DNA from: Thermoplasmata archaeon
GTDB lineage: Archaea > Thermoplasmatota > Thermoplasmata > GCA-020350865
Direction of reading: 5' to 3'
Assembly: GCA_020348445.1 (NCBI GenBank)
Contig: CP070751.1
Location: forward strand, 1,380,919 to 1,391,050
Length of the DNA stretch: 10,132 nt
Part shown: positions 1-10,017 of the stretch, piece after piece
How the letters are laid out: each line of letters opens with the position of its first letter
Position numbering within the stretch: the first letter of the stretch is position 1
Position numbers and translations under genes: made by a program
Notes under the pieces: generated by a model
The model's input: only the letters and a program-made list of their open reading frames with translations
Databases searched by the model: none
Told to the model about the DNA's origin: nothing

Positions 1-1593
1 TATTTCGTCTCCGACGTTGAGATCATATTGTTCGGCAGTATGGTTTGCTATAACGATTTTCCCGTCCCCAATTTCCATGACTCCTGCCTTTAATTCGTAG
101 GGGGCCAATTCTCCAAAGAAATCGATGTTCCTTTGGGATTCTAAAAAACTGTAGGTCTCGATCCAGATATCTTCATGGATAATTGGATAATCATCTGCCT
201 TTGCATCGATTGTTATGGTATAATCTCCGGCTGTAATACGGATATCATAATAGCCATATTGATTTGTCTTACCAAGTCTATATGTGTCCAAAACTTCAAT
301 GTGGGCACCCTCCAATGGGGCTCCATCTGCAGTATATACATACCCTTTTATTGAAGAGTTCATATGTTTTAAAAAGAAGTTCAATTGCCTGGTCTCCCCA
401 GCCAAAACAGATAATTTCATTTCTTCCTCCATATATCCAGATTCGTAGACATATATCGATACATTCCCATGGGATATGTTCAAATTAAAATAACCAAGAT
501 CATTTGTCCATTCATCGTACCAATAATCGAAATCGAGACTTTGAACGATAACCCATGCATGATAGATGGGTGCACTGCTCATTTGATCATACACATACCC
601 TTCCAAAAGCACATCCTCTACAGGGTCAATTACCACTGTAAGGTTTAGCCATACAATGGAATTGCTTGCAACCGCAACTTGAGAGTGATTTGTAAAAGGC
701 CCCCTCCACGAGCCCGACAATCCTTTAACTGAGATATTACCAGGGACCGTGTTTATGTGGTAGTAGCCTTTTTCGATTGAAGTAAAATTGCTATGCGGTA
801 TAGTATGATTCCATATTTCAATATACAAACTTCCGGTGTACGGATCGCCTGTCCTTGGATCCTTAACGTAACCCTCAATAGATGAACTTTCTATATCGTA
901 TATATGAAAGTCAAGATGTTTTTCCGGCTCCGAGGATGTGATGTTCACCCTCTCTATATGGTATGTTGAATCTCCAAGTTCCACCCTGATCTCATGCTCA
1001 GATGCAGGCAGGAAAAGTTCGTAATAACCTGATTCGGTGGTGTTGATGTAGGTTGAATAACCCTCGTACCAGGTTACGCTTTGCATCTCATAGGCTTTTA
1101 CTGTTATCTTTTCTACAGGTTTGCCATTATGAAGCGAGTACACGTTTCCATAGAGCTTATAGGTCTTGTGGGGGATCTGCTCCAAAGATGTGTTCAACCA
1201 TAAAGTGCCGTTTTGTGGGACCTGAATGTCTACCCTCTTTTCATTGTAGCCATATGTCGGTGTGATGATGGTAGAGCTGTTGTGAATTTCAAACCTGGTG
1301 GCCAAATGGGTCATAGCAAGAGATTCTTTTACACCGAATTTAGATTCCAATTGATCTTCCATGGTTCGGACATCCTCGGTGGACAGAATATCCTCTGATG
1401 CACCTAGTAGATCATATTTAAAATCTTTAAGCTCTTCTGCGAGAACATCCCTTGCAGTTGTATCCAAGGCTATGTTCTCCCCGGCGATCAGACTTACTGC
1501 AAGAACAACTCCAATTATTGAGGATAATGTCCTTCCCTTGTTTCGAAAAATGTCTTTTATAACGAACCTAGAAAATGCCAAAGTCCCTGCCAA
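1..1593 (-). CDS. MacB/FtsX-like ABC transporter permease, N-terminal 531 aa only (continues past window start), with four carboxypeptidase-regulatory-like repeats in the extracellular domain
   Basis: Manual translation of the minus strand gives a stop-free frame from a TTG at 1593 to base 1 (in-frame TAA at 1653-1651 upstream; alternative TTG at 1581). The N-terminus MAGTLAFSRFVIKDIFRNKGRTLSSIIGVVLAVSLIAG matches the MacB/FtsX N-terminal helix plus first TM pattern. The last residues KIVIANHTAEQYDLNVGDEI match the MacB periplasmic-core 'A..l.l.vGD.i' motif. Absent from the ORF track, presumably because no stop lies inside the window. Start codon is inferred. Confidence 0.85.
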   Translation of the reverse strand, partial: MAGTLAFSRFVIKDIFRNKGRTLSSIIGVVLAVSLIAGENIALDTTARDVLAEELKDFKYDLLGASEDILSTEDVRTMEDQLESKFGVKESLAMTHLATRFEIHNSSTIITPTYGYNEKRVDIQVPQNGTLWLNTSLEQIPHKTYKLYGNVYSLHNGKPVEKITVKAYEMQSVTWYEGYSTYINTTESGYYELFLPASEHEIRVELGDSTYHIERVNITSSEPEKHLDFHIYDIESSSIEGYVKDPRTGDPYTGSLYIEIWNHTIPHSNFTSIEKGYYHINTVPGNISVKGLSGSWRGPFTNHSQVAVASNSIVWLNLTVVIDPVEDVLLEGYVYDQMSSAPIYHAWVIVQSLDFDYWYDEWTNDLGYFNLNISHGNVSIYVYESGYMEEEMKLSVLAGETRQLNFFLKHMNSSIKGYVYTADGAPLEGAHIEVLDTYRLGKTNQYGYYDIRITAGDYTITIDAKADDYPIIHEDIWIETYSFLESQRNIDFFGELAPYELKAGVMEIGDGKIVIANHTAEQYDLNVGDEI

Positions 1594-1688: not shown

Positions 1689-1703
1689 CAAAAGATATAA
1701 ATA
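1689..1703 (+). promoter_or_regulatory. Archaeal BRE/TATA promoter upstream of the 33-aa ORF
   Basis: Purine-rich CAAAAGA (1689-1695) directly followed by TATAAATA (1696-1703). A start site about 25 nt downstream would fall just before the GAGGG RBS-like motif at 1729-1733. Confidence 0.55.
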
Positions 1704-1739
1704 TCGGCATGACCATAGTATCTTTAGCGAGGGCATAAA

Positions 1740-1841
1740 ATGAAAGAGATCAATTTCCGATGGCTAGAAAAAATCGACACAACTGCCCCAACACCAGTTA
1801 AGTCGATGATTGCGGATCCATTCCCAAATCTTCCGATTTAG
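1740..1841 (+). CDS. 33-aa small ORF MKEINFRWLEKIDTTAPTPVKSMIADPFPNLPI; candidate RiPP precursor peptide
   Basis: ATG at 1740, TAG at 1839-1841, GAGGG 6 nt upstream, TATA box at 1696-1703. Co-oriented with and 110 nt upstream of the rSAM-RRE-protease gene. Shorter than any ORF in the supplied track. Confidence 0.6.
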   Translation: MKEINFRWLEKIDTTAPTPVKSMIADPFPNLPI

Positions 1842-1950
1842 ATAAAAGGATATCTACTTCTCAGGGAACCCAACCTTACTATTATTAAATGTTATTCTTT
1901 TAGATTTTAACACCAAATAAGATTTAATAGCTATTTGCATTGGTGTATAG

Positions 1951-4518
1951 ATGAGTCTTCCCAGTGACAAATTTATTGACAGAAAGGCATACTTCGAGGA
2001 GCATGTAAAAAACGCAGAAAAGTTCATGAAGAATCCGAGGCTTAGATTGATTATCTGGGAGGCCACAAAAAACTGTGACTTTAACTGCCAGCATTGTTGC
2101 AATCCAAAGGAGGATTGGATACCCAAAGAGGAATTGAAAACCTCGGAGGTAAAACGTTTTTTTTGGGAAATTTCCCAGGATTTTGATGCAAAGGAGATAG
2201 GAGTTGGAATCACTGGTGGCGAGCCCACATTAAGAGACGATCTGGTGGAAGTAATACAACATATATCCAAGTTGGGATTTAGAGTTGGTCTATCCACTCA
2301 TGGGTATGGTCTTGGAAGGGATACAGATAAGATAGATAGATTGGTGAAGGCCGGGGTTGTGAGCTTTGCAATTTCCCTCGACGGAATGAAATCAACACAC
2401 AACGGAATAAGGGGCGCAAAATGTTTTGATGAGGTTGTCAGGGCCATCAGGTATCTGAGAGAAAACTATCCCGATGTAAAGTGTGAAGTTGCAACTGTGG
2501 TTACAAAGCACAACTTTAAAGAATTGGACCAGATGCACAGATTTCTTGAACATATCGGAGTACAGGACTGGAAGATCGCAGTTGCGGTCCCAATCAAAAG
2601 AGCAAAAGACGATCCTCGGATGATCCTGTCTGATTTTGACTTTCAAAAACTCATGGATTGGCTTTCTGAAAAAAATAAGCAATTTGATGCGGGTAGAACT
2701 GAACTTCACCCCCAGTTCGTAGACGAGGGTTGGTGCGGGAGGGATTACGAAGGAAAGGTGGCCCAAAGTCTGTTTTTCTGCCATGCGGGCCTTACAATTG
2801 CCAGCATCATGTATGATGGAAAGGTCGGGGTATGCCTTGAGGTCCCAAAAAATCTTAGTGTCCAGGGCGATTTAAAGAAACGCAGATTTTCTGAGATATG
2901 GAAGAATGAATTTGGGATTTTCAGAGGTAAAGATTGGCTTTATAAGGACAAATGCGCGGCCTGTTCAGAATGGGTATTTTGCAAGGGAGGGGCCATGCAT
3001 AATCGCACCTCAAATGGAAAGCTGATGCAGTGCCCTTTTTTAAGACTTCAGAAGATCGAGAAGAAGGGAGAGAAGAGGGAGATTCTGATAGACGAAATAG
3101 AGGAGATTAGAACGGCAGAACTGTTCCCTTTAGTTATGACCCAGCAAGATGACGGTTATATTGTGGGAAGGGAAGAAATCGGATCCTATGCCCTTTTTCC
3201 TGAAGAAGGTGTTGAGACAATACGCTTACTACAGTATACCTCTTCGATATCCAAGGTCCAAAACCAATTAAAAAATAAATACCATGAAGAAATCGATGTC
3301 CAGGGATTTGTTAGGGAGCTGGCTAAAGGAGGTCTTGTAAAGAGTATAAATGAGCAGGTCATCGAAACCCCAGCCGAAGAAAAGGTAAGAAGCGTTTTCA
3401 ACAATATAAGCCAAAAAAGGGTGAAATGGCTTTTCTCCATACCAGCGGCCGTCTTTTTTTTATTTATCATTGCCATTGGTTTATGGATAATACTTCTTAA
3501 TCCGATTTATTATCCAAGTTATACAGACTTTTTTATCAGCCAGAGATATACGATCATCGGATTGACAACAATAATTGTGAGCTTTGTTCTTATGATTAAA
3601 CATGAACTTGCCCATCTATTTGCAGCTAGGGCTTACGGAGCCAAAAGCCGAATAAGAATCTCTAACAGGCTGATATACATAGTAATGGAAACCGATCTTT
3701 CCAATCTATGGCTTCTTCCTAAGCGTAAGAGGATGGTTGCATATTTAGCAGGCATGATGAGCGACTTGCTTTTGATTTCCATTTTATTAATTCTTCTTTA
3801 CCTTCATGATGGTGGGGGATATGAGTACATTGCCGAAAGCACCGGAGTCTCTATTTTCCTTGGATTCGACGCCCTTATCGGCAGTGTGTATTTCTATAAA
3901 ATCGCGAAACTGATTATCTTTCTCTCTTTTATTATGATAGCCTTTCAGTTCATGTTTTACATGAGAACAGACGTCTATTATATTGTGGCTCACAGTTTAG
4001 ACTGCAAGAATCTTTATAACGATGCAAGAACCCTGATAAAAAACACGACAAGAAGATTGGTTCGAAAACCCATCACTCCTTTGGAAGAGGGGATACCAGA
4101 TCGGGAGATGAAAGTCATTAGGGGCTACGCAGTGCTTCATTTTGTGGGCGTGGCTTTAGTGATTTTACTGATGATATATATCATGCTTCCTCTTCTCTGG
4201 GTATTGTACACAGGTGCCTTCAATAATATGTATCTTGGCCTTGAGTCAGGTGAAATCGCTACTTGGTATTTTTTAGATGCGTTTACCTTTGTAATTGTTC
4301 ATGCGATCTTCTTTACCTTCCTTGGATATTTGGCAATAAAGAAACGCAAAAGACATGTTTTTAGGTATGTCACAGATAAAGAATCTAAGGTTCCAGATAT
4401 AGTGATGTCCACTGTAAGATGCCCAAATTGTAAGGGACTATTTGGTGTAGAGATGTTTTCCTCAGAAACCCAGTGCCCCCACTGTGGTGTTAAGGGGACG
4501 CTGAGCTATGGTAGCTAG
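1951..4518 (+). CDS. Multidomain fusion: radical SAM/SPASM enzyme + PqqD-like RiPP recognition element + M50-like intramembrane zinc metalloprotease + C-terminal zinc ribbon (855 aa)
   Basis: CDFNCQHC (CxxxCxxC) at 2074-2097 and ITGGEPTLR. SPASM cysteines at 2779, 2833, 2953, 2962, 2980, 3031. RRE-like segment ~3121-3360 (GYIVGREEIGSYALFPEEGVETIRLL...DVQGFVRELAKGGLV). HELAH at 3601-3615, LAGMMSD ending at 3765, RTDVYY with Asp at 3970, and about 6-7 hydrophobic helices. CPNC...CPHC at 4420-4485. One uninterrupted frame. Confidence 0.9.
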   Translation: MSLPSDKFIDRKAYFEEHVKNAEKFMKNPRLRLIIWEATKNCDFNCQHCCNPKEDWIPKEELKTSEVKRFFWEISQDFDAKEIGVGITGGEPTLRDDLVEVIQHISKLGFRVGLSTHGYGLGRDTDKIDRLVKAGVVSFAISLDGMKSTHNGIRGAKCFDEVVRAIRYLRENYPDVKCEVATVVTKHNFKELDQMHRFLEHIGVQDWKIAVAVPIKRAKDDPRMILSDFDFQKLMDWLSEKNKQFDAGRTELHPQFVDEGWCGRDYEGKVAQSLFFCHAGLTIASIMYDGKVGVCLEVPKNLSVQGDLKKRRFSEIWKNEFGIFRGKDWLYKDKCAACSEWVFCKGGAMHNRTSNGKLMQCPFLRLQKIEKKGEKREILIDEIEEIRTAELFPLVMTQQDDGYIVGREEIGSYALFPEEGVETIRLLQYTSSISKVQNQLKNKYHEEIDVQGFVRELAKGGLVKSINEQVIETPAEEKVRSVFNNISQKRVKWLFSIPAAVFFLFIIAIGLWIILLNPIYYPSYTDFFISQRYTIIGLTTIIVSFVLMIKHELAHLFAARAYGAKSRIRISNRLIYIVMETDLSNLWLLPKRKRMVAYLAGMMSDLLLISILLILLYLHDGGGYEYIAESTGVSIFLGFDALIGSVYFYKIAKLIIFLSFIMIAFQFMFYMRTDVYYIVAHSLDCKNLYNDARTLIKNTTRRLVRKPITPLEEGIPDREMKVIRGYAVLHFVGVALVILLMIYIMLPLLWVLYTGAFNNMYLGLESGEIATWYFLDAFTFVIVHAIFFTFLGYLAIKKRKRHVFRYVTDKESKVPDIVMSTVRCPNCKGLFGVEMFSSETQCPHCGVKGTLSYGS

Positions 4519-4536
4519 GCTCGATAACGTTCTATA

Positions 4537-4543
4537 TTTTTTT
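4537..4543 (+). terminator. Oligo(dT) archaeal-type terminator candidate after the rSAM fusion gene
   Basis: T7 tract 19 nt after the TAG stop, followed by further pyrimidine-rich sequence. Confidence 0.45.
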
Positions 4544-4566
4544 GTTCCCTTCCCAAAAACCCTCTC

Positions 4567-4706
4567 CACCCTTACCTCTTCTCTGTGGTCTACTCCATCC
4601 CCTCCATCGTGGCCTATATCATCCCCACCACCCGTTCCCCCTCTGTCGTGACCTATTCAAATCCCTCCGTACTTACCCCCACCGTCGTGGCCTATTCCAT
4701 TTCCTT
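4567..4706. repeat. Degenerate ~39-bp tandem repeat, about 3.6 copies, pyrimidine-rich on + and G-rich on -
   Basis: Core GTG(G/A)(C/T)CTA starts at 4585, 4609, 4648 and 4687 (spacings 24, 39, 39). Minus-strand consensus is approximately GAGGGGATGGAATAGGCCACGACAGAGGGGGTAAGGGTG. Confidence 0.75.
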
Positions 4707-4856
4707 TATGATTGATTCATAGTCCACTTTGCTCTTCGGTTATACTATAAATAAATTATATCTTAAACCTCAGGACACCCACCCAATAATTCATGAAATA
4801 AAGAAGAATAAAAGCGATATGAGGGCATTTCCTCCGCAACATTTATATTGTAGCCA

Positions 4857-5069: not shown

Positions 5070-5507
5070 ATGGATGTGAATGTCAGGCCCTTAACTGAGA
5101 ATGACTTTGATGCTGTCTCGGAAATTCAAGAGGCAATTACAAAGAAAAAACCAGGGGAGGGACTAAAAAGAAGGATGCATGATTACATCAACAAAGATCC
5201 CGAGGCCAACCTGGTTGCCGAGGCCGAGGGGAAGGTCGTGGGTTTTGTAATAGGTGGAATAAAGGACTGGGAATTCGGGGTGGAGAAAAGCGGCTGGCTG
5301 GAGATAATCGGTATACATCCAAAGTACATGGGCCAGGGTATAGGAAGGATGCTGGGCAAAAAACTGCTTGAGCACTTCAAAAAGAAGAACATCAAAAACA
5401 TCTATACTGTGGCAAGATGGGACTCTGGTGATCTTTTGGCATTTTTCAAGTCAATTGGTTTTGACAGAAGTGATTTTATTAATTTGGAAAGACGACTGGA
5501 AGATTAA
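5070..5507 (+). CDS. GNAT-family N-acetyltransferase
   Basis: Acetyl-CoA-binding motif A (IGIHPKYMGQGIGRML), N-terminal VRPLTENDFDAV strand-helix and C-terminal LAFFKSIGF. RBS GAGGTGA overlaps the upstream stop codon. Confidence 0.9.
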   Translation: MDVNVRPLTENDFDAVSEIQEAITKKKPGEGLKRRMHDYINKDPEANLVAEAEGKVVGFVIGGIKDWEFGVEKSGWLEIIGIHPKYMGQGIGRMLGKKLLEHFKKKNIKNIYTVARWDSGDLLAFFKSIGFDRSDFINLERRLED

Positions 5508-5530
5508 AATAGAAATTGTGGAGGGATAAA

Positions 5531-6655
5531 TTGATAGAAATGTTCAAGGAGTGGTATGAAAACAAACACGAATACGCAAAGCACTGGAAAGAAAAGACTG
5601 GCGGAAAGGTGATGGGCTATTTCTGCACGTACGTTCCCGAGGAGATTCTCATTGCGGCTAACATCCTACCAGTTCGGATTCTTGGAAGCCACGAGCCCCA
5701 GGACGTGACAGAGCCCCATATCTTTGCAATGTACTGTCCGTTCTGCAGGGACTGTCTGGCCCAGGGACTAAAGGGCAGATACGATTATCTGGACGGCACC
5801 ATGATATCCCAATCATGTTTGCATGTAAGGCAGGCCTTCACGAGCTGGCAGCTGCATATTCCAACAGAATACAGTTACTATCTACCCATGCCCAATCATG
5901 TCCAGAGTCCAAGGGCAGTGGAATTTCTAAAAGGGGAGCTTGAGAGGTTCAAGAAATCCATTGAGGATTGGACAGGAAAAGAGATTACTGATGAAGATCT
6001 GGCTCGCGGGATAGAGATCGTTAACAAGAACAGGAGACTCATGAAACAGGTTTACGAGCTGAGAAAAAAAGAAAAGCCACCTCTAACTGGTCTTGAAGCC
6101 ATGTACATGGTGGTATCCAGCCAGATGGTTGATAAAGAGGAGCACAACAGGATCTTGGAGGACACGCTAAAGGAACTAGAAAACAGAGATATTGGAAAAG
6201 AAGTTGGACAGAGATTGATGATCATAGGAAGCGAGGACGACGATACAGAGTTCATCAGCATGGTTGAATCCCTAGGTGCTACATTTGTTGTGGACGACCA
6301 CTGCACAGGGACGAGGTACTTCTGGAACGAGGTGGAACCTCAAGAGGACAAGCTAAAAGCCATCGCAGAAAGATATGTCAATAGACCAGCTTGCCCAAGT
6401 AAAGACTGGCCCGAGCGCACGAGGCTGCCGCACATTCTGAATCTAGCAAAGGATTACAATGTAAGCGGTGCTATTTTGATTCAGCAGAAGTTCTGCGACC
6501 CCCATGAGTTGGACATCCCCGCTATCAACAAGTACCTCAAGGAGAACGGTATCCCCAGCCTGTTTTTGGAATTTGATGTGACTGTTCCAATAGGCCAGTT
6601 CAAGATTCGAACAGAGGCATTTTTGGAAATGCTGAGTGAGGAGGACCTGTTTTAG
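5531..6655 (+). CDS. bzdN: Benzoyl-CoA reductase, bzd-type, subunit N (BcrC/BadD homologue; 2-hydroxyacyl-CoA dehydratase fold)
   Basis: FKEWYENKHEYAKHWKEKTGGKVMGYFCTYVPEE, YCPFCRDCLAQGLKGRYDYLDG, DDHCTGTRYFW and QQKFCDPHELDIP match BzdN as I recall it. First of the N-O-P-Q-ferredoxin order. Start moved to TTG 5531 because GGAGG lies at 5520-5524. Confidence 0.88.
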   Translation: MIEMFKEWYENKHEYAKHWKEKTGGKVMGYFCTYVPEEILIAANILPVRILGSHEPQDVTEPHIFAMYCPFCRDCLAQGLKGRYDYLDGTMISQSCLHVRQAFTSWQLHIPTEYSYYLPMPNHVQSPRAVEFLKGELERFKKSIEDWTGKEITDEDLARGIEIVNKNRRLMKQVYELRKKEKPPLTGLEAMYMVVSSQMVDKEEHNRILEDTLKELENRDIGKEVGQRLMIIGSEDDDTEFISMVESLGATFVVDDHCTGTRYFWNEVEPQEDKLKAIAERYVNRPACPSKDWPERTRLPHILNLAKDYNVSGAILIQQKFCDPHELDIPAINKYLKENGIPSLFLEFDVTVPIGQFKIRTEAFLEMLSEEDLF

Positions 6656-6667
6656 GAGGTGAGATGC

Positions 6668-8017
6668 ATGGCTGAAGTAAAGTACAAAACCGAGAAATTG
6701 AAATGCTGGGACGAGGTAAAGAATATCAGAATGGATTACTACAAGAATTACACCGAAGCCCACGATACGGGTGGATTGAGATGGGCAGGTGGAGCCTGGA
6801 CCCTGGATGCGGTTCCTGCAGGTCTTGGTGAGGATGTTTATCCCATCACAAGCGAACCCTACGGTGCATCAATTGCCTTTGATAAGCAGCTTTCTTTAGA
6901 ATGTCTGGAGGCCACTGAAAAGGCGGGCTATGCACGGGATCTGTGTGCCTACATGCGCAATTACTGGGGCTCCATAATCCTGGATAAATTTGCATTCAAT
7001 TACAAGGACGGGGAATTTGGACCAAGGTTCAGGGGTGGCGAGGCCATAAGCTTTCCAAAACCGGATTTTTTATGGCAGGATCATATCTGCTGCTCGCATG
7101 CAAAGTGGTATCAGATAGTATCAGAGCTTGAGAAGGGAATACCCATGTTCTGCGTAGATGTGGGTGTGGGCCCATATACTGAGATTACAGACAACAGGGT
7201 AAATTACGTTGTTAACCAGCTAAAGGACGGCATTGAATGGATGGAGAAGACAACAGGCAGAGATTACGATGACGAGCTTCTCATAAAGGCCGTGTACAAC
7301 CACTGTCGGGCCACTTCGAAATGGGCCGAGGTATGCGCCCTCAACAAGAACATCCCAGCTCCGCTGGATGAGAAGACCATGTACTCCCTGTATGTCCTTG
7401 GAACACTGCATAAGGCAAGCCAGAGAGTAGCTGACTTCTATGAAAAGATACTCCTTCCTGAGGTAAAAGACAGGGTAAAGAGAGAAATTGCAGCAGTGCC
7501 CAATGAGCAGTGTAGGGTCATGTCAGATACTCAACCTCCCTGGGGTTTTCTCAAGGTCTTTCGTTATCTTGAGCAGTACGGCTGTGTGTCCATAGGTTCC
7601 TTGTATACCTTCGGATTAATTGGTATTTGGGAGGAGAAGGAGGACGGAACCTGGGGTCCCAAACCCACTCCACAGGAAGCTGGTATAGAACTCACCAACA
7701 GGGATGATGCATTGGATTACTATGTCAGATGGGAGCTAAACAAACCTGAGTGGCAGCACTTCTACTCCCCTCATCTAAAGAGCGAGATGATGATAAGAAT
7801 TGCAAAGGAATGGAAGTTAGACGGAGTGATGCTACATTACAATAGAGGATGCGAAGGCTTATCCTTGGGCATAGCCGAGAATCGATTGGCTCTGCTTAAG
7901 GCCGGTTTTCCCGTGATGACCTTCGAGGGGAACATGGGAGATGAAAGGGAATTTGATGAGGCCCGGACCACGGCCAGAATGGATGCTTTCATGGAGACAT
8001 TAGGAATCAAAAAATAG
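6668..8017 (+). CDS. bzdO: Benzoyl-CoA reductase, bzd-type, subunit O (BcrB/BadE homologue)
   Basis: [50 protein letters not shown] and [24 protein letters not shown] at 6655-6662 places the start at ATG 6668. Confidence 0.88.
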
Positions 8018-8039
8018 AGGTTCAAAAGGAGGTAACAAG

Positions 8040-8819
8040 ATGATAACAGCAGGTGTTGATTGCGGTGCAAAGAACACGAAGGTAGTGATATTAAAGGACG
8101 GTAACATCTTAAGCAAAAGCACAGTGCTTTCAGGTTTCGATCAAAAAGGTGCTGCAAAGCAGGCATTTGAGGAGGCACTGAAACAGGCCAACTTGGCAGC
8201 CGGGGATGTCGCCCATATCACGGCCACAGGAGCAGGAAAAAAGGAAGTTGATTTTGCCAACAATACAGTAACAGAGGTTGGAGCCGATGCAAAGGGTGTG
8301 AACAACCTATTCCCCTCGGTAAAAACCATCATAGATGTTGGAGCAGAAGAGGGCCGGGCAATAAAAAGCGATGGAAACGGCAAGGTCATCGACTTTGCAA
8401 TAAACGAGAAATGCGCAGCAGGTGCAGGGTCATTCACAGAATCCATGGCCAGGGCCTTGGAGGTTCCGGTGGAGGATCTGGGAGATCTGTCCCTCAAGTC
8501 CACAAGGAGTATCCAGATGAACGCCCAGTGTGCAGTGTTCGCAGAGTCCGAGGTCGTTACACTGGTTCATGCAAAGACTCCAAAGGAGGACATGGCAAAG
8601 GCGGTTCACGACGCCATTGCCAGCAGAATCACATCCATGGTAAGAAAAATCGGTGTGGAAAATGATGTGGCCCTGATAGGCGGTGTTGCTAAGAACAAGG
8701 GTTTTGTCAAGTCACTTAAGGATGACTTGGAAGTGGATTTGAAATTGCCGGAAGACCCTGAGTATGTAACTGCTTTGGGTGCGGCGATTGCTGCTTCCGA
8801 GCGAGCAGGAGGTGCATGA
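8040..8819 (+). CDS. bzdP: Benzoyl-CoA reductase, bzd-type, ATPase/activase subunit P (BcrD/BadG homologue)
   Basis: ASKHA ATPase motifs AGVDCGAKNTK, IDVGAEEGRAI and LIGGVAKN; cluster cysteines in NEKCAAGAG and AQCAVFAESE. RBS GGAGGT at 8028-8033. Confidence 0.85.
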   Translation: MITAGVDCGAKNTKVVILKDGNILSKSTVLSGFDQKGAAKQAFEEALKQANLAAGDVAHITATGAGKKEVDFANNTVTEVGADAKGVNNLFPSVKTIIDVGAEEGRAIKSDGNGKVIDFAINEKCAAGAGSFTESMARALEVPVEDLGDLSLKSTRSIQMNAQCAVFAESEVVTLVHAKTPKEDMAKAVHDAIASRITSMVRKIGVENDVALIGGVAKNKGFVKSLKDDLEVDLKLPEDPEYVTALGAAIAASERAGGA

Positions 8820-8820
8820 G

Positions 8821-9690
8821 ATGGCAGAGGAATATTGGAGATGGACAGAATCAAGGTGGACGGCACCTGATTTGGACTGGAAAAATGCGGATATTATCTC
8901 GGCTGGAGTGGATGTGGGTTCGGTCTCTTCCCAGGCTGTTGTCATGGCAGATGGAAAACTCTACGCATACAGCAATATGCGTACAGGATCAAGCAGTCCC
9001 GACAGTGCCAACAAGGCAATAAACTGGGCCATGGAGGATACTGGATTGAAATTGGAGGACCTTCAATATACTGTTGGAACAGGTTACGGCAGGGTCAATG
9101 TCCCTTTTGCCAATAGAGCCATAACAGAGATTGCCTGTCATGCAAGGGGTGCGAATTTCATGTACGGTCCTACAATTAGAACTGTTCTGGATATGGGCGG
9201 CCAGGACTGCAAGGCCATTCACTGCGATGAAAAAGGTAAGGTCACGGCATTTCTTATGAACGACAAATGTGCTGCAGGAACAGGCAGGGGAATGGAGGTC
9301 TTCGCTGATTTGCTATCTGTATCCATAAACGAGGTTGGAGAGCTTTCATTGAAGGTGGAAGAAGAGCCGGAGCCTGTTTCAAGTACCTGTGTCGTGTTCG
9401 CCAAATCAGAGGCTGCAGGTCTTCTTCGGGAAGGCTGGCCCAAGGAAAAGGTGCTTGCCGCATACTGCTCTGCCATGGCTCACAGGGTGGTTACTCTGCT
9501 TGAGCGAATCGGGATGGAAAAGGAGTTCGCCATTACAGGCGGCATTGCAAAGAACGTAGGTGTCGTAAACAGGCTTGAGAAAGAACTAGGTGTAAAAGCC
9601 CTTACTCCAAAATACGACACGCAGATTGCAGGTGCAATAGGTGGAGCACTTTTCGGCAAAGCCTTGGTAGAAAAAAGCAGGAAGAAATAA
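8821..9690 (+). CDS. bzdQ: Benzoyl-CoA reductase, bzd-type, ATPase/activase subunit Q (short BcrA/BadF homologue)
   Basis: MAEEYWRW N-terminus, AGVDVGSVSSQAV, GTGYGRVNVPFA, LDMGGQDCKAI, NDKCAAGTG and STCVVFAKSE. RBS GGAGGTG at 8808-8814 places the start at ATG 8821 rather than 8779. Confidence 0.88.
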   Translation: MAEEYWRWTESRWTAPDLDWKNADIISAGVDVGSVSSQAVVMADGKLYAYSNMRTGSSSPDSANKAINWAMEDTGLKLEDLQYTVGTGYGRVNVPFANRAITEIACHARGANFMYGPTIRTVLDMGGQDCKAIHCDEKGKVTAFLMNDKCAAGTGRGMEVFADLLSVSINEVGELSLKVEEEPEPVSSTCVVFAKSEAAGLLREGWPKEKVLAAYCSAMAHRVVTLLERIGMEKEFAITGGIAKNVGVVNRLEKELGVKALTPKYDTQIAGAIGGALFGKALVEKSRKK

Positions 9691-9729
9691 TCGTAAATCT
9701 CCTTCTTAATAATTTCAAGGAGGCAGGAT

Positions 9730-10017
9730 ATGATAGCAAATTATGGATATAAGGATGGCTCAGGCGAGTTCTTCATAAGCATTGATACTGATTGCTGCGA
9801 TGGCTGCGGAAAGTGCGTGGAGGCCTGTACATGGGGTGTCATGGCTGTTGGGGAGGACCAAAACGATCCCCTTCGTGAGGAGCCCGTGGCCAGGGTCTCT
9901 GAAGAGCACAGGAAGAAGATCAAGTACTCCTGCGCCCAATGCAAACCTGCATCAGGTGCCACAACACCACCGTGTATATTGTCCTGTGAACCTCAGGCTA
10001 TAAATCATTCGTGGTGA
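9730..10017 (+). CDS. bzdM: 2[4Fe-4S] ferredoxin of the BzdM type (probable electron donor to benzoyl-CoA reductase)
   Basis: ANYGYKDGSGEFFISIDTD N-terminus, CDGCGKCVEAC, CAQC-x10-CILSC and terminal HSW. Directly follows bzdQ; RBS GGAGG at 9719-9723. Confidence 0.8.
   Translation: MIANYGYKDGSGEFFISIDTDCCDGCGKCVEACTWGVMAVGEDQNDPLREEPVARVSEEHRKKIKYSCAQCKPASGATTPPCILSCEPQAINHSW

What the first reader, a model, noticed from the sequence alone, without database searches (positions are those of the whole stretch)
1951..4518. Radical SAM/SPASM enzyme fused to an RRE and an intramembrane metalloprotease in one polypeptide
Seen: all diagnostic motifs in one 855-aa frame (CxxxCxxC; SPASM cysteines; RRE-like segment; HELAH plus distal RTDVYY Asp; 6-7 TM segments). 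Established: rSAM-RRE and RRE-protease fusions are each known separately. Inference: the triple fusion tethers an oxygen-sensitive rSAM to the membrane and could pass the RRE-bound peptide from modification to leader cleavage, with one RRE serving both catalytic domains. I do not recognise this architecture from any characterised pathway.
Basis: partly seen in the sequence, partly recalled or inferred. Interest (0 to 1): 0.8.

Follow-up and report, generated by a model that had tools for sequence, protein, structure and literature searches.

The report
One-protein archaeal peptide maturase and protease
A single 855-residue archaeal membrane protein joins a radical-SAM peptide-modifying enzyme, a leader-peptide docking domain and a membrane-embedded zinc protease, and it sits next to its own 33-residue substrate gene. 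Together they look like a complete two-gene factory for a modified peptide of unknown chemistry, an arrangement I found in no paper or curated family.

Summary
ORF 1951-4518 (+) encodes one 855-aa protein with four parts:
- a radical SAM/SPASM domain (Pfam E 1e-22 and 3e-7; Cys42/46/49);
- an RRE fold at residues 387-470 (Z 9.6 to the lasso-peptide RRE TbiB1);
- a six-helix site-2-protease-like domain (Z 9.8 to RseP). Its HExxH (551-555) and Asp674 are invariant in 80 relatives;
- a zinc-ribbon tail.

It is not an assembly artefact. About a dozen independent homologues of 829-857 aa, at 35-69% identity, keep the frame open. They come from Thermoplasmatota and Zixibacteria MAGs.

New here: all four fusion loci whose upstream DNA I could read carry a ~30-aa ORF just upstream. 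These ORFs share a leader (invariant I, W-L-E-K) and have variable, Pro/aromatic-rich tails. Split relatives also exist (rSAM | ATP-grasp | RRE-protease as separate genes), and there the only RRE is on the protease.

The RRE-protease module alone is a very large family (at least 1,276 clusters at 50% identity). It is distantly related to the daptide peptidase MpaP and also pairs or fuses with ThiF enzymes. This scan met that module before on other DNA, but not the radical-SAM fusion.

Verdict: a real, rare, undescribed fusion variant of known RiPP parts. The chemistry and the product are unknown.

The parts
1690..1733 (+). Putative archaeal promoter (A-rich BRE-like stretch plus an ATATAAAT-type box at about 1690-1704) and a GAGGG ribosome-binding site (1729-1733) ahead of the precursor gene
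   Evidence: Read directly from the sequence. Inference only; no transcript data.
1740..1841 (+). 33-aa precursor peptide gene. The leader is roughly residues 1-15 and holds the conserved I..WLEK motif. The core is a 17-18-residue tail with five Pro and one Phe, and no Cys, Trp or Tyr.
   Evidence: Small ORF. Equivalent ORFs lie directly upstream of the fusion gene in L011, L016 and L017, with I4, W8, L9, E10 and K11 invariant. The leader motif occurs once in the 5.16-Mb genome.
1890..1908 (+). T-rich tract between the precursor and the maturase gene; possibly a partial terminator that would set the peptide-to-enzyme ratio
   Evidence: Sequence reading only; inference.
1951..4518 (+). The whole 855-aa fusion gene: radical SAM/SPASM, then RRE, then a site-2-protease-like membrane domain, then a zinc ribbon
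   Evidence: Full-length AlphaFold model with pLDDT 87.9 and pTM 0.66.
2002..3048 (+). Radical SAM/SPASM catalytic domain (residues 18-366). CxxxCxxC lies at nt 2074-2097 and the SPASM cysteines at nt 2779-3033.
   Evidence: Pfam Radical_SAM E 1.3e-22 and SPASM E 2.6e-7. The best NCBIfam model is TIGR04133 at 253 bits, below its cut-off of 425. Foldseek matches SkfB, BlsE, SuiB, CteB, PqqE and anSME at E about 1e-11 to 1e-10.
3049..3108 (+). Flexible linker between SPASM and RRE (residues 367-386), with the low-confidence stretch at 373-377
   Evidence: pLDDT falls below 50 at residues 373-377 in the full-length model. The frame stays open here in all homologues.
3109..3360 (+). RRE (PqqD-like winged-helix leader-peptide recognition domain), residues 387-470
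   Evidence: VIA-align gives TbiB1 Z 9.6, lasso B1 Z 9.5, TigE 8.7, PqqD 7.9 and CteB 7.0. Foldseek probability is 1.00. Relatives P0052 and P0063 give weak Pfam PqqD hits.
3439..4359 (+). Six-helix site-2-protease-like (M50-clan) zinc metalloprotease domain, residues 497-803. HELAH is at nt 3601-3615 and Asp674 at nt 3970-3972.
   Evidence: H551, E552, H555 and D674 are invariant in 80 relatives. VIA-align gives RseP Z 9.8 and 9.0, SpoIVFB 8.6 and MjS2P 7.5. Pfam Peptidase_M50 scores 16.4 bits, below its cut-off of 27.2. NF041824 daptide_HExxH gives E 8e-5. Positive-inside topology is N-in/C-in.
4414..4491 (+). C-terminal CxxC...CxxC zinc ribbon (residues 822-847), predicted to be cytoplasmic. 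It is present only in the closest relatives P0001-P0003.
   Evidence: Alignment; weak zinc-ribbon Pfam and NCBIfam hits. The same ribbon recurs in many other proteins of this genus.
4535..4546 (+). Oligo-T run 17 nt after the stop codon; a likely archaeal terminator that closes the two-gene unit
   Evidence: Sequence reading; inference.

Best explanation
Window 1740-4518 is a self-contained two-gene RiPP (ribosomal peptide natural product) cassette of a Thermoplasmatota archaeon.

Proposed mechanism:
1. The 33-aa precursor docks, through its short N-terminal leader (I..WLEK), onto the single RRE domain of the 855-aa enzyme (residues 387-470).
2. The N-terminal radical SAM/SPASM domain is joined to the RRE by a flexible linker and held at the cytoplasmic face of the membrane. 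It modifies the Pro/aromatic-rich core by radical chemistry.
3. The same RRE-bound peptide is then cut by the C-terminal site-2-protease-type zinc centre (His551, Glu552, His555, Asp674). This centre lies at the cytoplasmic end of a six-helix membrane domain. Cutting removes the leader.

Shown: the domain identities, their order, conservation of the catalytic residues, conservation of the fusion, the conserved upstream precursor, and the existence of split versions.

Inferred: the order of the reactions, the sharing of the RRE, the cleavage site, and the chemistry. My best guess for the chemistry, at about 25%, is a cross-link at the conserved aromatic-Pro site; Calpha epimerisation as in epipeptides is the next option. 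What happens to the product afterwards (release or export) is unknown.
For: Domains and folds:
- Pfam and NCBIfam hits.
- High-confidence models.
- RRE and S2P fold matches and radical SAM maturase fold matches.
- HExxH and Asp are invariant in 80 relatives; the radical SAM and SPASM cysteines are invariant in 16.

The fusion is conserved:
- P0002 (69%), P0003 (63%), P0005-8 (36-38%), P0045 (Zixibacteria), and P0201-203.
- 4 of 401 genomes of the phylum, in four families.

The precursor:
- 4 of 4 readable loci have an upstream ~30-aa ORF with invariant I, W, L, E, K and variable tails. This holds across genomes of 40% and 68-70% GC.
- Each is preceded by a Shine-Dalgarno-like site.
- The leader motif is unique in the genome.

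Split forms:
- L019 encodes a 377-aa radical SAM/SPASM protein, 37% identical over 362 residues (E 6e-101). It is followed by an ATP-grasp gene and then a separate RRE-HExxH membrane protein.
- L012, L018 and L020 have a radical SAM-ATP-grasp fusion plus a separate RRE-protease.

The same RRE-protease module partners with ThiF enzymes, both split (G308, twice) and fused (P0058, P0204).

Topology puts the radical SAM domain, the RRE, the metal site and the zinc ribbon all on the cytoplasmic side.

Precedents:
- The RRE-dependent intramembrane leader peptidase MpaP of daptides (PMC10036551).
- The radical SAM plus M50 pair of the epipeptide pathway (PMC10885120).
Against: - There are no biochemical data for any member.
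- Pfam Peptidase_M50 and PqqD do not reach their thresholds on this protein. The third metal ligand sits in an RTD motif, not the canonical LDG.
- The SPASM domain lacks one of the seven canonical cysteines, and Cys262 is not conserved, so the state of its auxiliary clusters is unclear.
- The inter-domain arrangement is not confidently predicted (pTM 0.66).
- No exporter is conserved beside the cassette. Only L016 has an ABC-2 transporter.
- The precursor set has only four members, three of them closely related.
- The gene was not found in the four other genomes of the same genus, so it is accessory.
Confidence: 0.75

Rival explanations
1. This is the same two-gene peptide system, but the membrane domain is not the leader peptidase. 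It would serve mainly as a membrane anchor, or as an export or escort device for the modified peptide, and cleavage would be done by another protease.
For: - EpeP, the M50 protein of the epipeptide pathway, is thought to take part in both cleavage and export, and deleting it did not abolish production (PMC10885120).
- No dedicated exporter is conserved beside the cassette.
- Pfam M50 is below threshold.
Against: - HExxH and the distal Asp are invariant across 80 diverged relatives, which argues for retained catalysis.
- The RRE-fused S2P of daptides is assigned as the leader peptidase.
- The metal site lies at the cytoplasmic face, where the RRE-bound peptide would be.
Confidence: 0.1
2. This is not a RiPP system. 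The protein would be a regulated-intramembrane-proteolysis or signalling device, or a cofactor or lipid radical SAM enzyme anchored in the membrane, and the upstream small ORF would be incidental.
For: - After TIGR04133, the best-scoring NCBIfam models for the radical SAM domain are haem and cofactor enzymes such as AhbD and NirJ.
- Classical S2Ps cut membrane-anchored regulators.
- Tetraether lipid synthases are archaeal radical SAM enzymes.
Against: - The small ORF with the same leader motif is kept upstream in all four readable loci despite very different GC content.
- The middle domain matches leader-binding RREs of RiPP enzymes best.
- Split relatives sit next to repetitive precursor-like genes.
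- No regulator or anti-sigma-like partner is present.
Confidence: 0.07
3. The long frame is an artefact: an assembly chimera or a frameshifted read-through of two genes. Alternatively it is a decaying pseudogene.
For: The genome is a MAG-like single contig with 82% marker completeness, and a stretch just upstream of the window is masked.
Against: - Independent assemblies from NCBI, JGI, ENA and Logan give the same 829-857-aa frame at 35-69% identity. The junction residues align without gaps or stops.
- All catalytic residues are intact.
Confidence: 0.02

Closest known systems
Daptide leader peptidase MpaP/DapP: an RRE fused N-terminally to an intramembrane site-2 protease (Ren et al. 2023, Nat Commun 14:1624, PMC10036551)
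   Same: The order RRE then HExxH membrane protease is the same as in residues 387-803. There is distant sequence similarity (NF041824, E 8e-5 here and 5e-9 for family member P0060). The assigned role is the same: RRE-dependent leader removal.
   Different: The score is far below the NF041824 cut-off (22 against 300 bits). No daptide enzymes are present (no MpaB/C/D/M-type oxidative decarboxylase, aminotransferase or methyltransferase). The precursor lacks the ELExMEAP leader and the C-terminal Thr. Here a radical SAM/SPASM enzyme is fused in front of the module.
Epipeptide pathway of Bacillus subtilis (epeXEPAB / yydFGHIJ): radical SAM epimerase EpeE/YydG plus membrane M50 protease EpeP/YydH (reviewed in PMC10885120)
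   Same: It is a radical SAM peptide-modifying enzyme working with an intramembrane M50-type protease on a short precursor. The EpeE structure is among the fold matches (E about 6e-8).
   Different: In the epipeptide pathway the two enzymes are separate proteins and a dedicated ABC transporter is present. EpeE ranks below SkfB, SuiB, PqqE and anSME as a structural match. I did not compare EpeP itself with this protein, including whether it carries an RRE.
RRE-bearing radical SAM/SPASM RiPP maturases (SuiB, CteB, SkfB, TigE; PqqE with PqqD in trans)
   Same: Radical SAM core plus SPASM-type auxiliary-cluster domain plus a PqqD-like RRE.
   Different: In SuiB, CteB, SkfB and TigE the RRE is N-terminal to the barrel. 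Here it follows the SPASM domain and is shared with a fused protease. One canonical SPASM cysteine is missing. None of those enzymes is membrane-anchored.
NCBIfam TIGR04133 (rSAM_w_lipo), an uncharacterised radical SAM/SPASM family
   Same: It is the best-scoring curated model for residues 18-366 (253 bits, E 3e-75).
   Different: The score is below the family cut-off of 425 bits. The family has no known function, so it gives no clue to the chemistry.

Membership tests
Radical SAM superfamily (PF04055) | CxxxCxxC motif binding the SAM-cleaving [4Fe-4S] cluster, and a Pfam score above the gathering threshold | tested here: met
   C42/C46/C49 are invariant in 16 relatives. The score is 81.2 bits against a cut-off of 29.5.
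SPASM domain (PF13186) | Pfam score above threshold, and the seven-cysteine motif CX9-15GX4C ... CX2CX5CX3C ... C | tested here: inconclusive
   The score of 31.3 bits is above the cut-off of 21.5, but only six of the seven cysteines are present. Position CX3C is Ala348 in this protein and lacks Cys in all aligned relatives. The number of auxiliary clusters cannot be told from sequence.
NCBIfam TIGR04133 radical SAM/SPASM family | Whole-protein score of at least 425 bits | tested here: not met
   253.4 bits.
RiPP recognition element (PqqD-like RRE) | Three-stranded sheet plus three-helix winged-helix fold like PqqD and lasso B1 | tested here: met
   Model residues 13-96 (protein residues 387-470) align to TbiB1 at Z 9.6, rmsd 2.6 A, over 82 of 88 residues. 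Lasso B1 gives Z 9.5 and PqqD Z 7.9. Foldseek probability is 1.00.
RiPP recognition element (PqqD-like RRE) | Sequence match to Pfam PqqD (PF05402) | tested here: not met
   No hit at E up to 1 on this protein. Family members P0052 (21.4 bits) and P0063 give sub-threshold hits.
RiPP recognition element (PqqD-like RRE) | Binds the leader of a cognate precursor peptide | not testable with these tools
   A conserved leader (I..WLEK) lies in the upstream ORF in four loci, but binding needs an experiment or a complex prediction.
Site-2 protease / Peptidase M50 (PF02163) | HExxH inside a transmembrane helix, plus a distal Asp ligand in a later helix | tested here: met
   HELAH 551-555 lies in transmembrane segment 535-559. 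H, E, H and D674 are invariant in 80 relatives. The Asp sits in an RTD context, not the canonical LDG.
Site-2 protease / Peptidase M50 (PF02163) | Pfam score above the gathering threshold | tested here: not met
   16.4 bits against 27.2. Relatives score 13-25 bits.
Site-2 protease / Peptidase M50 (PF02163) | S2P core fold | tested here: met
   RseP 9j82 gives Z 9.8 (162 residues aligned), 7w6x Z 9.0, SpoIVFB Z 8.6 and MjS2P Z 7.5 with 21% identity. These are the only membrane proteins above Z 7. The Z values are middling for a helical domain.
Daptide biosynthesis intramembrane metalloprotease (NF041824) / daptide cluster | Score of at least 300 bits; a neighbouring oxidative decarboxylase, aminotransferase and methyltransferase; a precursor ending in Thr | tested here: not met
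   22 bits. The neighbours are unrelated genes. The precursor ends in Ile.

The most novel reading that the evidence does not exclude
The cassette defines a new RiPP class of uncultivated archaea, and of a few bacteria. A single membrane-anchored polypeptide would carry out recognition, a so far undescribed radical modification of a Pro/aromatic-rich ~15-residue core, and leader removal, and perhaps release at the membrane. That would make it the smallest complete radical SAM RiPP pathway known: two genes and 2.8 kb.
Probability: 0.35. Interest if true: 0.8.

Novelty: new variant of a known kind. Interest (0 to 1): 0.62.

Why it matters
Few ribosomal peptide natural products are known from archaea, and radical SAM pathways normally need several proteins. 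Here recognition, modification and leader removal sit in one chain beside a 33-residue substrate gene, which has three practical consequences.
- It gives a very compact system for heterologous expression and engineering.
- It is a natural 'Rosetta stone' showing that RRE-fused site-2 proteases work together with the modifying enzyme. This helps to interpret a family of more than a thousand uncharacterised RRE-protease clusters.
- It offers a direct test of whether one RRE can feed two active sites in turn.

Tried and rejected
The loci of P0002, P0003, P0045 and P0201-203 could not be fetched, so the precursor set stayed at four.
- The search for homologous proteins does not accept the 33-aa precursor alignment because the minimum is 40 aa.
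- Literature searches for a radical SAM-RRE-M50 fusion returned only the daptide paper and a protease review. The TMcin papers concern a different, membrane-embedded bacteriocin.
- Another first-stage note calls the divergent upstream gene (window 1-1593, minus strand) a MacB-type transporter. I could not verify this. Pfam finds only carboxypeptidase-regulatory-like repeats, with no FtsX or MacB domains. The gene runs into a masked N stretch, and no ABC ATPase lies nearby.
- No neighbour is conserved across the fusion loci apart from the precursor.
- Rfam finds nothing in the window.
- L021 is a stand-alone radical SAM relative with no RRE-protease next to it, so it was uninformative.
- The nearest curated and structural radical SAM matches are diverse (TIGR04133, AhbD/NirJ, MftC, SkfB, SuiB, PqqE, anSME, EpeE). 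Sequence therefore does not reveal the chemistry.
- The downstream genes (DUF2080, GNAT, benzoyl-CoA-reductase-like operon) lie beyond an oligo-T run and a 340-nt spacer. I treated them as unrelated.
Full report
**1. The observation**

The window has one long open frame at 1951-4518 on the + strand, 855 aa. An in-frame stop lies directly before the ATG.
- Pfam finds Radical_SAM at residues 38-199 (E 1.3e-22) and SPASM at 277-338 (31.3 bits, cut-off 21.5).
- Pfam also gives a sub-threshold Peptidase_M50 match around the HExxH, at 540-656 (16.4 bits, cut-off 27.2).
- The best NCBIfam model for residues 18-366 is TIGR04133, an uncharacterised radical SAM/SPASM family. It scores 253 bits, below its 425-bit cut-off. 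AhbD/NirJ-type, MftC and other peptide maturase models follow.
- The radical SAM cysteines are C42, C46 and C49.
- The SPASM motif has C277-x12-G-x4-C295, C335xxC338x5C344 and C361. The CX3C position is Ala348, so six of the seven canonical cysteines are present. The same holds in all aligned relatives.

**2. The middle and C-terminal parts**

I folded residues 375-855 with an 80-sequence alignment. The model has pLDDT 89.5 and pTM 0.83.
- Residues 387-470 form a small sheet followed by three helices.
  - They align to the leader-binding domains TbiB1 (Z 9.6, rmsd 2.6 A, 82 of 88 residues) and lasso B1 (Z 9.5).
  - Further matches are TigE (8.7), PqqD (7.9) and CteB (7.0).
- Residues about 531-751 align to the site-2 proteases RseP (Z 9.8 and 9.0), SpoIVFB (8.6) and MjS2P (7.5, 21% identity).
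- Nothing unrelated scores above these two groups.
- In the 80-sequence alignment the only invariant positions are P522, H551, E552, H555, G601 and D674. These include the HExxH and a distal Asp, as expected for a His-His-Asp zinc site.
- Hydropathy gives six membrane segments. The counts of Lys plus Arg in the successive loops are 1, 9, 1, 11, 0 and 11.
- This places the N-terminal domains, the metal site and the C-terminal zinc ribbon (822-847) all in the cytoplasm.
- A full-length model (pLDDT 87.9, pTM 0.66) shows a short low-confidence linker at 373-377 and no second RRE before the radical SAM barrel.
- Its N-terminal half matches the radical SAM peptide maturases SkfB, SuiB, CteB, PqqE and anSME at E about 1e-11 to 1e-10.

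**3. Not an artefact, and rare**
- Full-length homologues of 829-857 aa come from independent sources.
  - P0002 is 69% identical (Thermoplasmata MAG, 4.2-Mb contig) and P0003 is 63% identical.
  - P0005-P0008 are 36-38% identical.
  - P0045 comes from a Zixibacteria MAG.
  - P0201-P0203 are further fused forms.
- All keep one frame across the junction.
- In a sample of 401 genomes of the phylum, four carry the fusion, in four different families.
- The four other genomes of the same genus do not carry it.
- Sources name these proteins only 'radical SAM protein'.
- A second group of relatives (P0009-P0020) are tandem double radical SAM/SPASM proteins without a membrane part.

**4. The substrate gene**
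- A 33-codon ORF lies at 1740-1841. It has an A/T-rich box and a GAGGG site in front of it and a T-rich tract behind it.
- An equivalent ORF of 29-31 codons lies directly upstream of the fusion gene in every other locus whose upstream DNA I could read (L011, L016, L017). These genomes have 68-70% GC, against about 40% here.
- Each of these ORFs is preceded by a GGAGGTGA site.
- The four peptides share invariant I4, W8, L9, E10 and K11. They then diverge into short tails that contain Pro next to an aromatic residue, and a Met.
- The leader motif occurs only once in the 5.16-Mb genome.
- This is the pattern expected of a RiPP precursor: a conserved leader and a variable core.

**5. Split and alternative versions**
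- In L019 a 377-aa radical SAM/SPASM protein is 37% identical over 362 residues (E 6e-101). It is followed by a separate ATP-grasp gene and then a separate RRE-HExxH membrane protein (E 1e-8 around the metal site).
- The radical SAM protein in L019 has no room for an RRE of its own.
- L012, L018 and L020 have a radical SAM-ATP-grasp fusion plus a separate RRE-protease.
- The RRE-protease module alone is a very large family. It has 1,276 clusters at 50% identity with E up to 1e-3, and 285 below 1e-30. Most members are about 400-430 aa.
- The module is distantly related to the daptide peptidase model NF041824.
- In a genome of the same class it follows a ThiF-family gene at two separate loci. 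It also occurs fused to ThiF (P0058, P0204).
- The module therefore teams up with different modifying enzymes, and each pairing exists both split and fused. The window holds the fused radical SAM version.

**6. Comparison with what is known**
- An RRE fused to an intramembrane site-2 protease was described for daptides, where MpaP is assigned as the RRE-dependent leader peptidase (PMC10036551).
- Radical SAM plus M50 as separate proteins is known from epipeptides (EpeE and EpeP). M50 enzymes also act in pearlin pathways (PMC10885120).
- I found no paper describing a radical SAM-RRE-protease fusion.
- Earlier notes of this scan describe the RRE-protease family on other DNA, but not this fusion.

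**7. Mechanism and limits**

The most likely course has three steps:
- The leader docks on the RRE.
- The tethered radical SAM domain modifies the core.
- The zinc site at the inner membrane face then removes the leader.

The domain identities, the conservation and the precursor are shown. The order of steps, the sharing of the RRE, the cleavage site and the chemistry are inferred. The conserved aromatic-Pro site suggests a cross-link, and epimerisation of the hydrophobic residues is an alternative. Neither can be decided from sequence. No exporter is conserved, and only L016 has an ABC-2 transporter next to the cassette.

**8. Verdict**

This is a rare, undescribed fusion variant built from known RiPP parts, with a newly supported cognate precursor. 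Interest is moderate to high.

Noticed in passing
L012:4955-5884 (+), L019:3239-3892 (+), L018:4-219 (+): Upstream of the split radical SAM / ATP-grasp / RRE-protease genes lie long, repetitive, Pro-rich precursor-like proteins of 217-309 aa. The loci come from Patescibacteria-type and other metagenome contigs. The proteins hold many tandem short units and recurring T-T...G-E-E-G boundary motifs. Their N-terminal leader resembles the window's leader (hydrophobic-x-hydrophobic-x-x-L-E ... T-x-P). They may be multi-core RiPP precursors carrying both ATP-grasp and radical SAM modifications.
   Followed up: partly
P0009-P0020 (alignment A1): A family of 739-873-aa proteins made of two radical SAM/SPASM domains in tandem. 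The second domain is 37-40% identical to the window's radical SAM domain. There is no membrane part, and one member is from an Eremiobacterota MAG. I found no description of it.
   Followed up: no
L103:270-2700 and L108:300-2718 (genome G308, same class); P0058, P0204: Stand-alone RRE-site-2-protease genes sit directly behind ThiF-family genes at two loci in one genome. ThiF-RRE-protease fusions of 763-767 aa also exist. Other phylum members have APH-type kinase or aminotransferase genes next to the module (L106, L107, L101).
   Followed up: partly
window 4585-4708: Three to four direct repeats with a 39-nt period (core ...TCGTGGCCTAT...) lie in a C-rich 340-nt spacer between the maturase terminator and the DUF2080-GNAT-benzoyl-CoA-reductase-like operon. 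They may be regulator binding sites.
   Followed up: partly
window 5070-10017: A GNAT gene is followed by two HGD-D-type subunits, two BcrAD/BadFG-type ATPase subunits and a ferredoxin. This is a class I benzoyl-CoA-reductase-like or 2-hydroxyacyl-CoA-dehydratase-like operon in an archaeon.
   Followed up: no
window 1-1593 (-) and L096:6791-8512: The divergent upstream gene encodes an N-terminal membrane helix followed by several carboxypeptidase-regulatory-like beta-sandwich repeats. It runs into a masked N stretch just outside the window. No FtsX or MacB domain was detected, so the transporter reading in another first-stage note is unverified.
   Followed up: partly
window 4414-4491; G000 and same-genus genomes: The C-terminal CxxC...CxxC zinc ribbon of the fusion protein recurs at the C-terminus of many otherwise unrelated large proteins (about 900-3,900 aa) in this genus. 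Its role is unknown.
   Followed up: no
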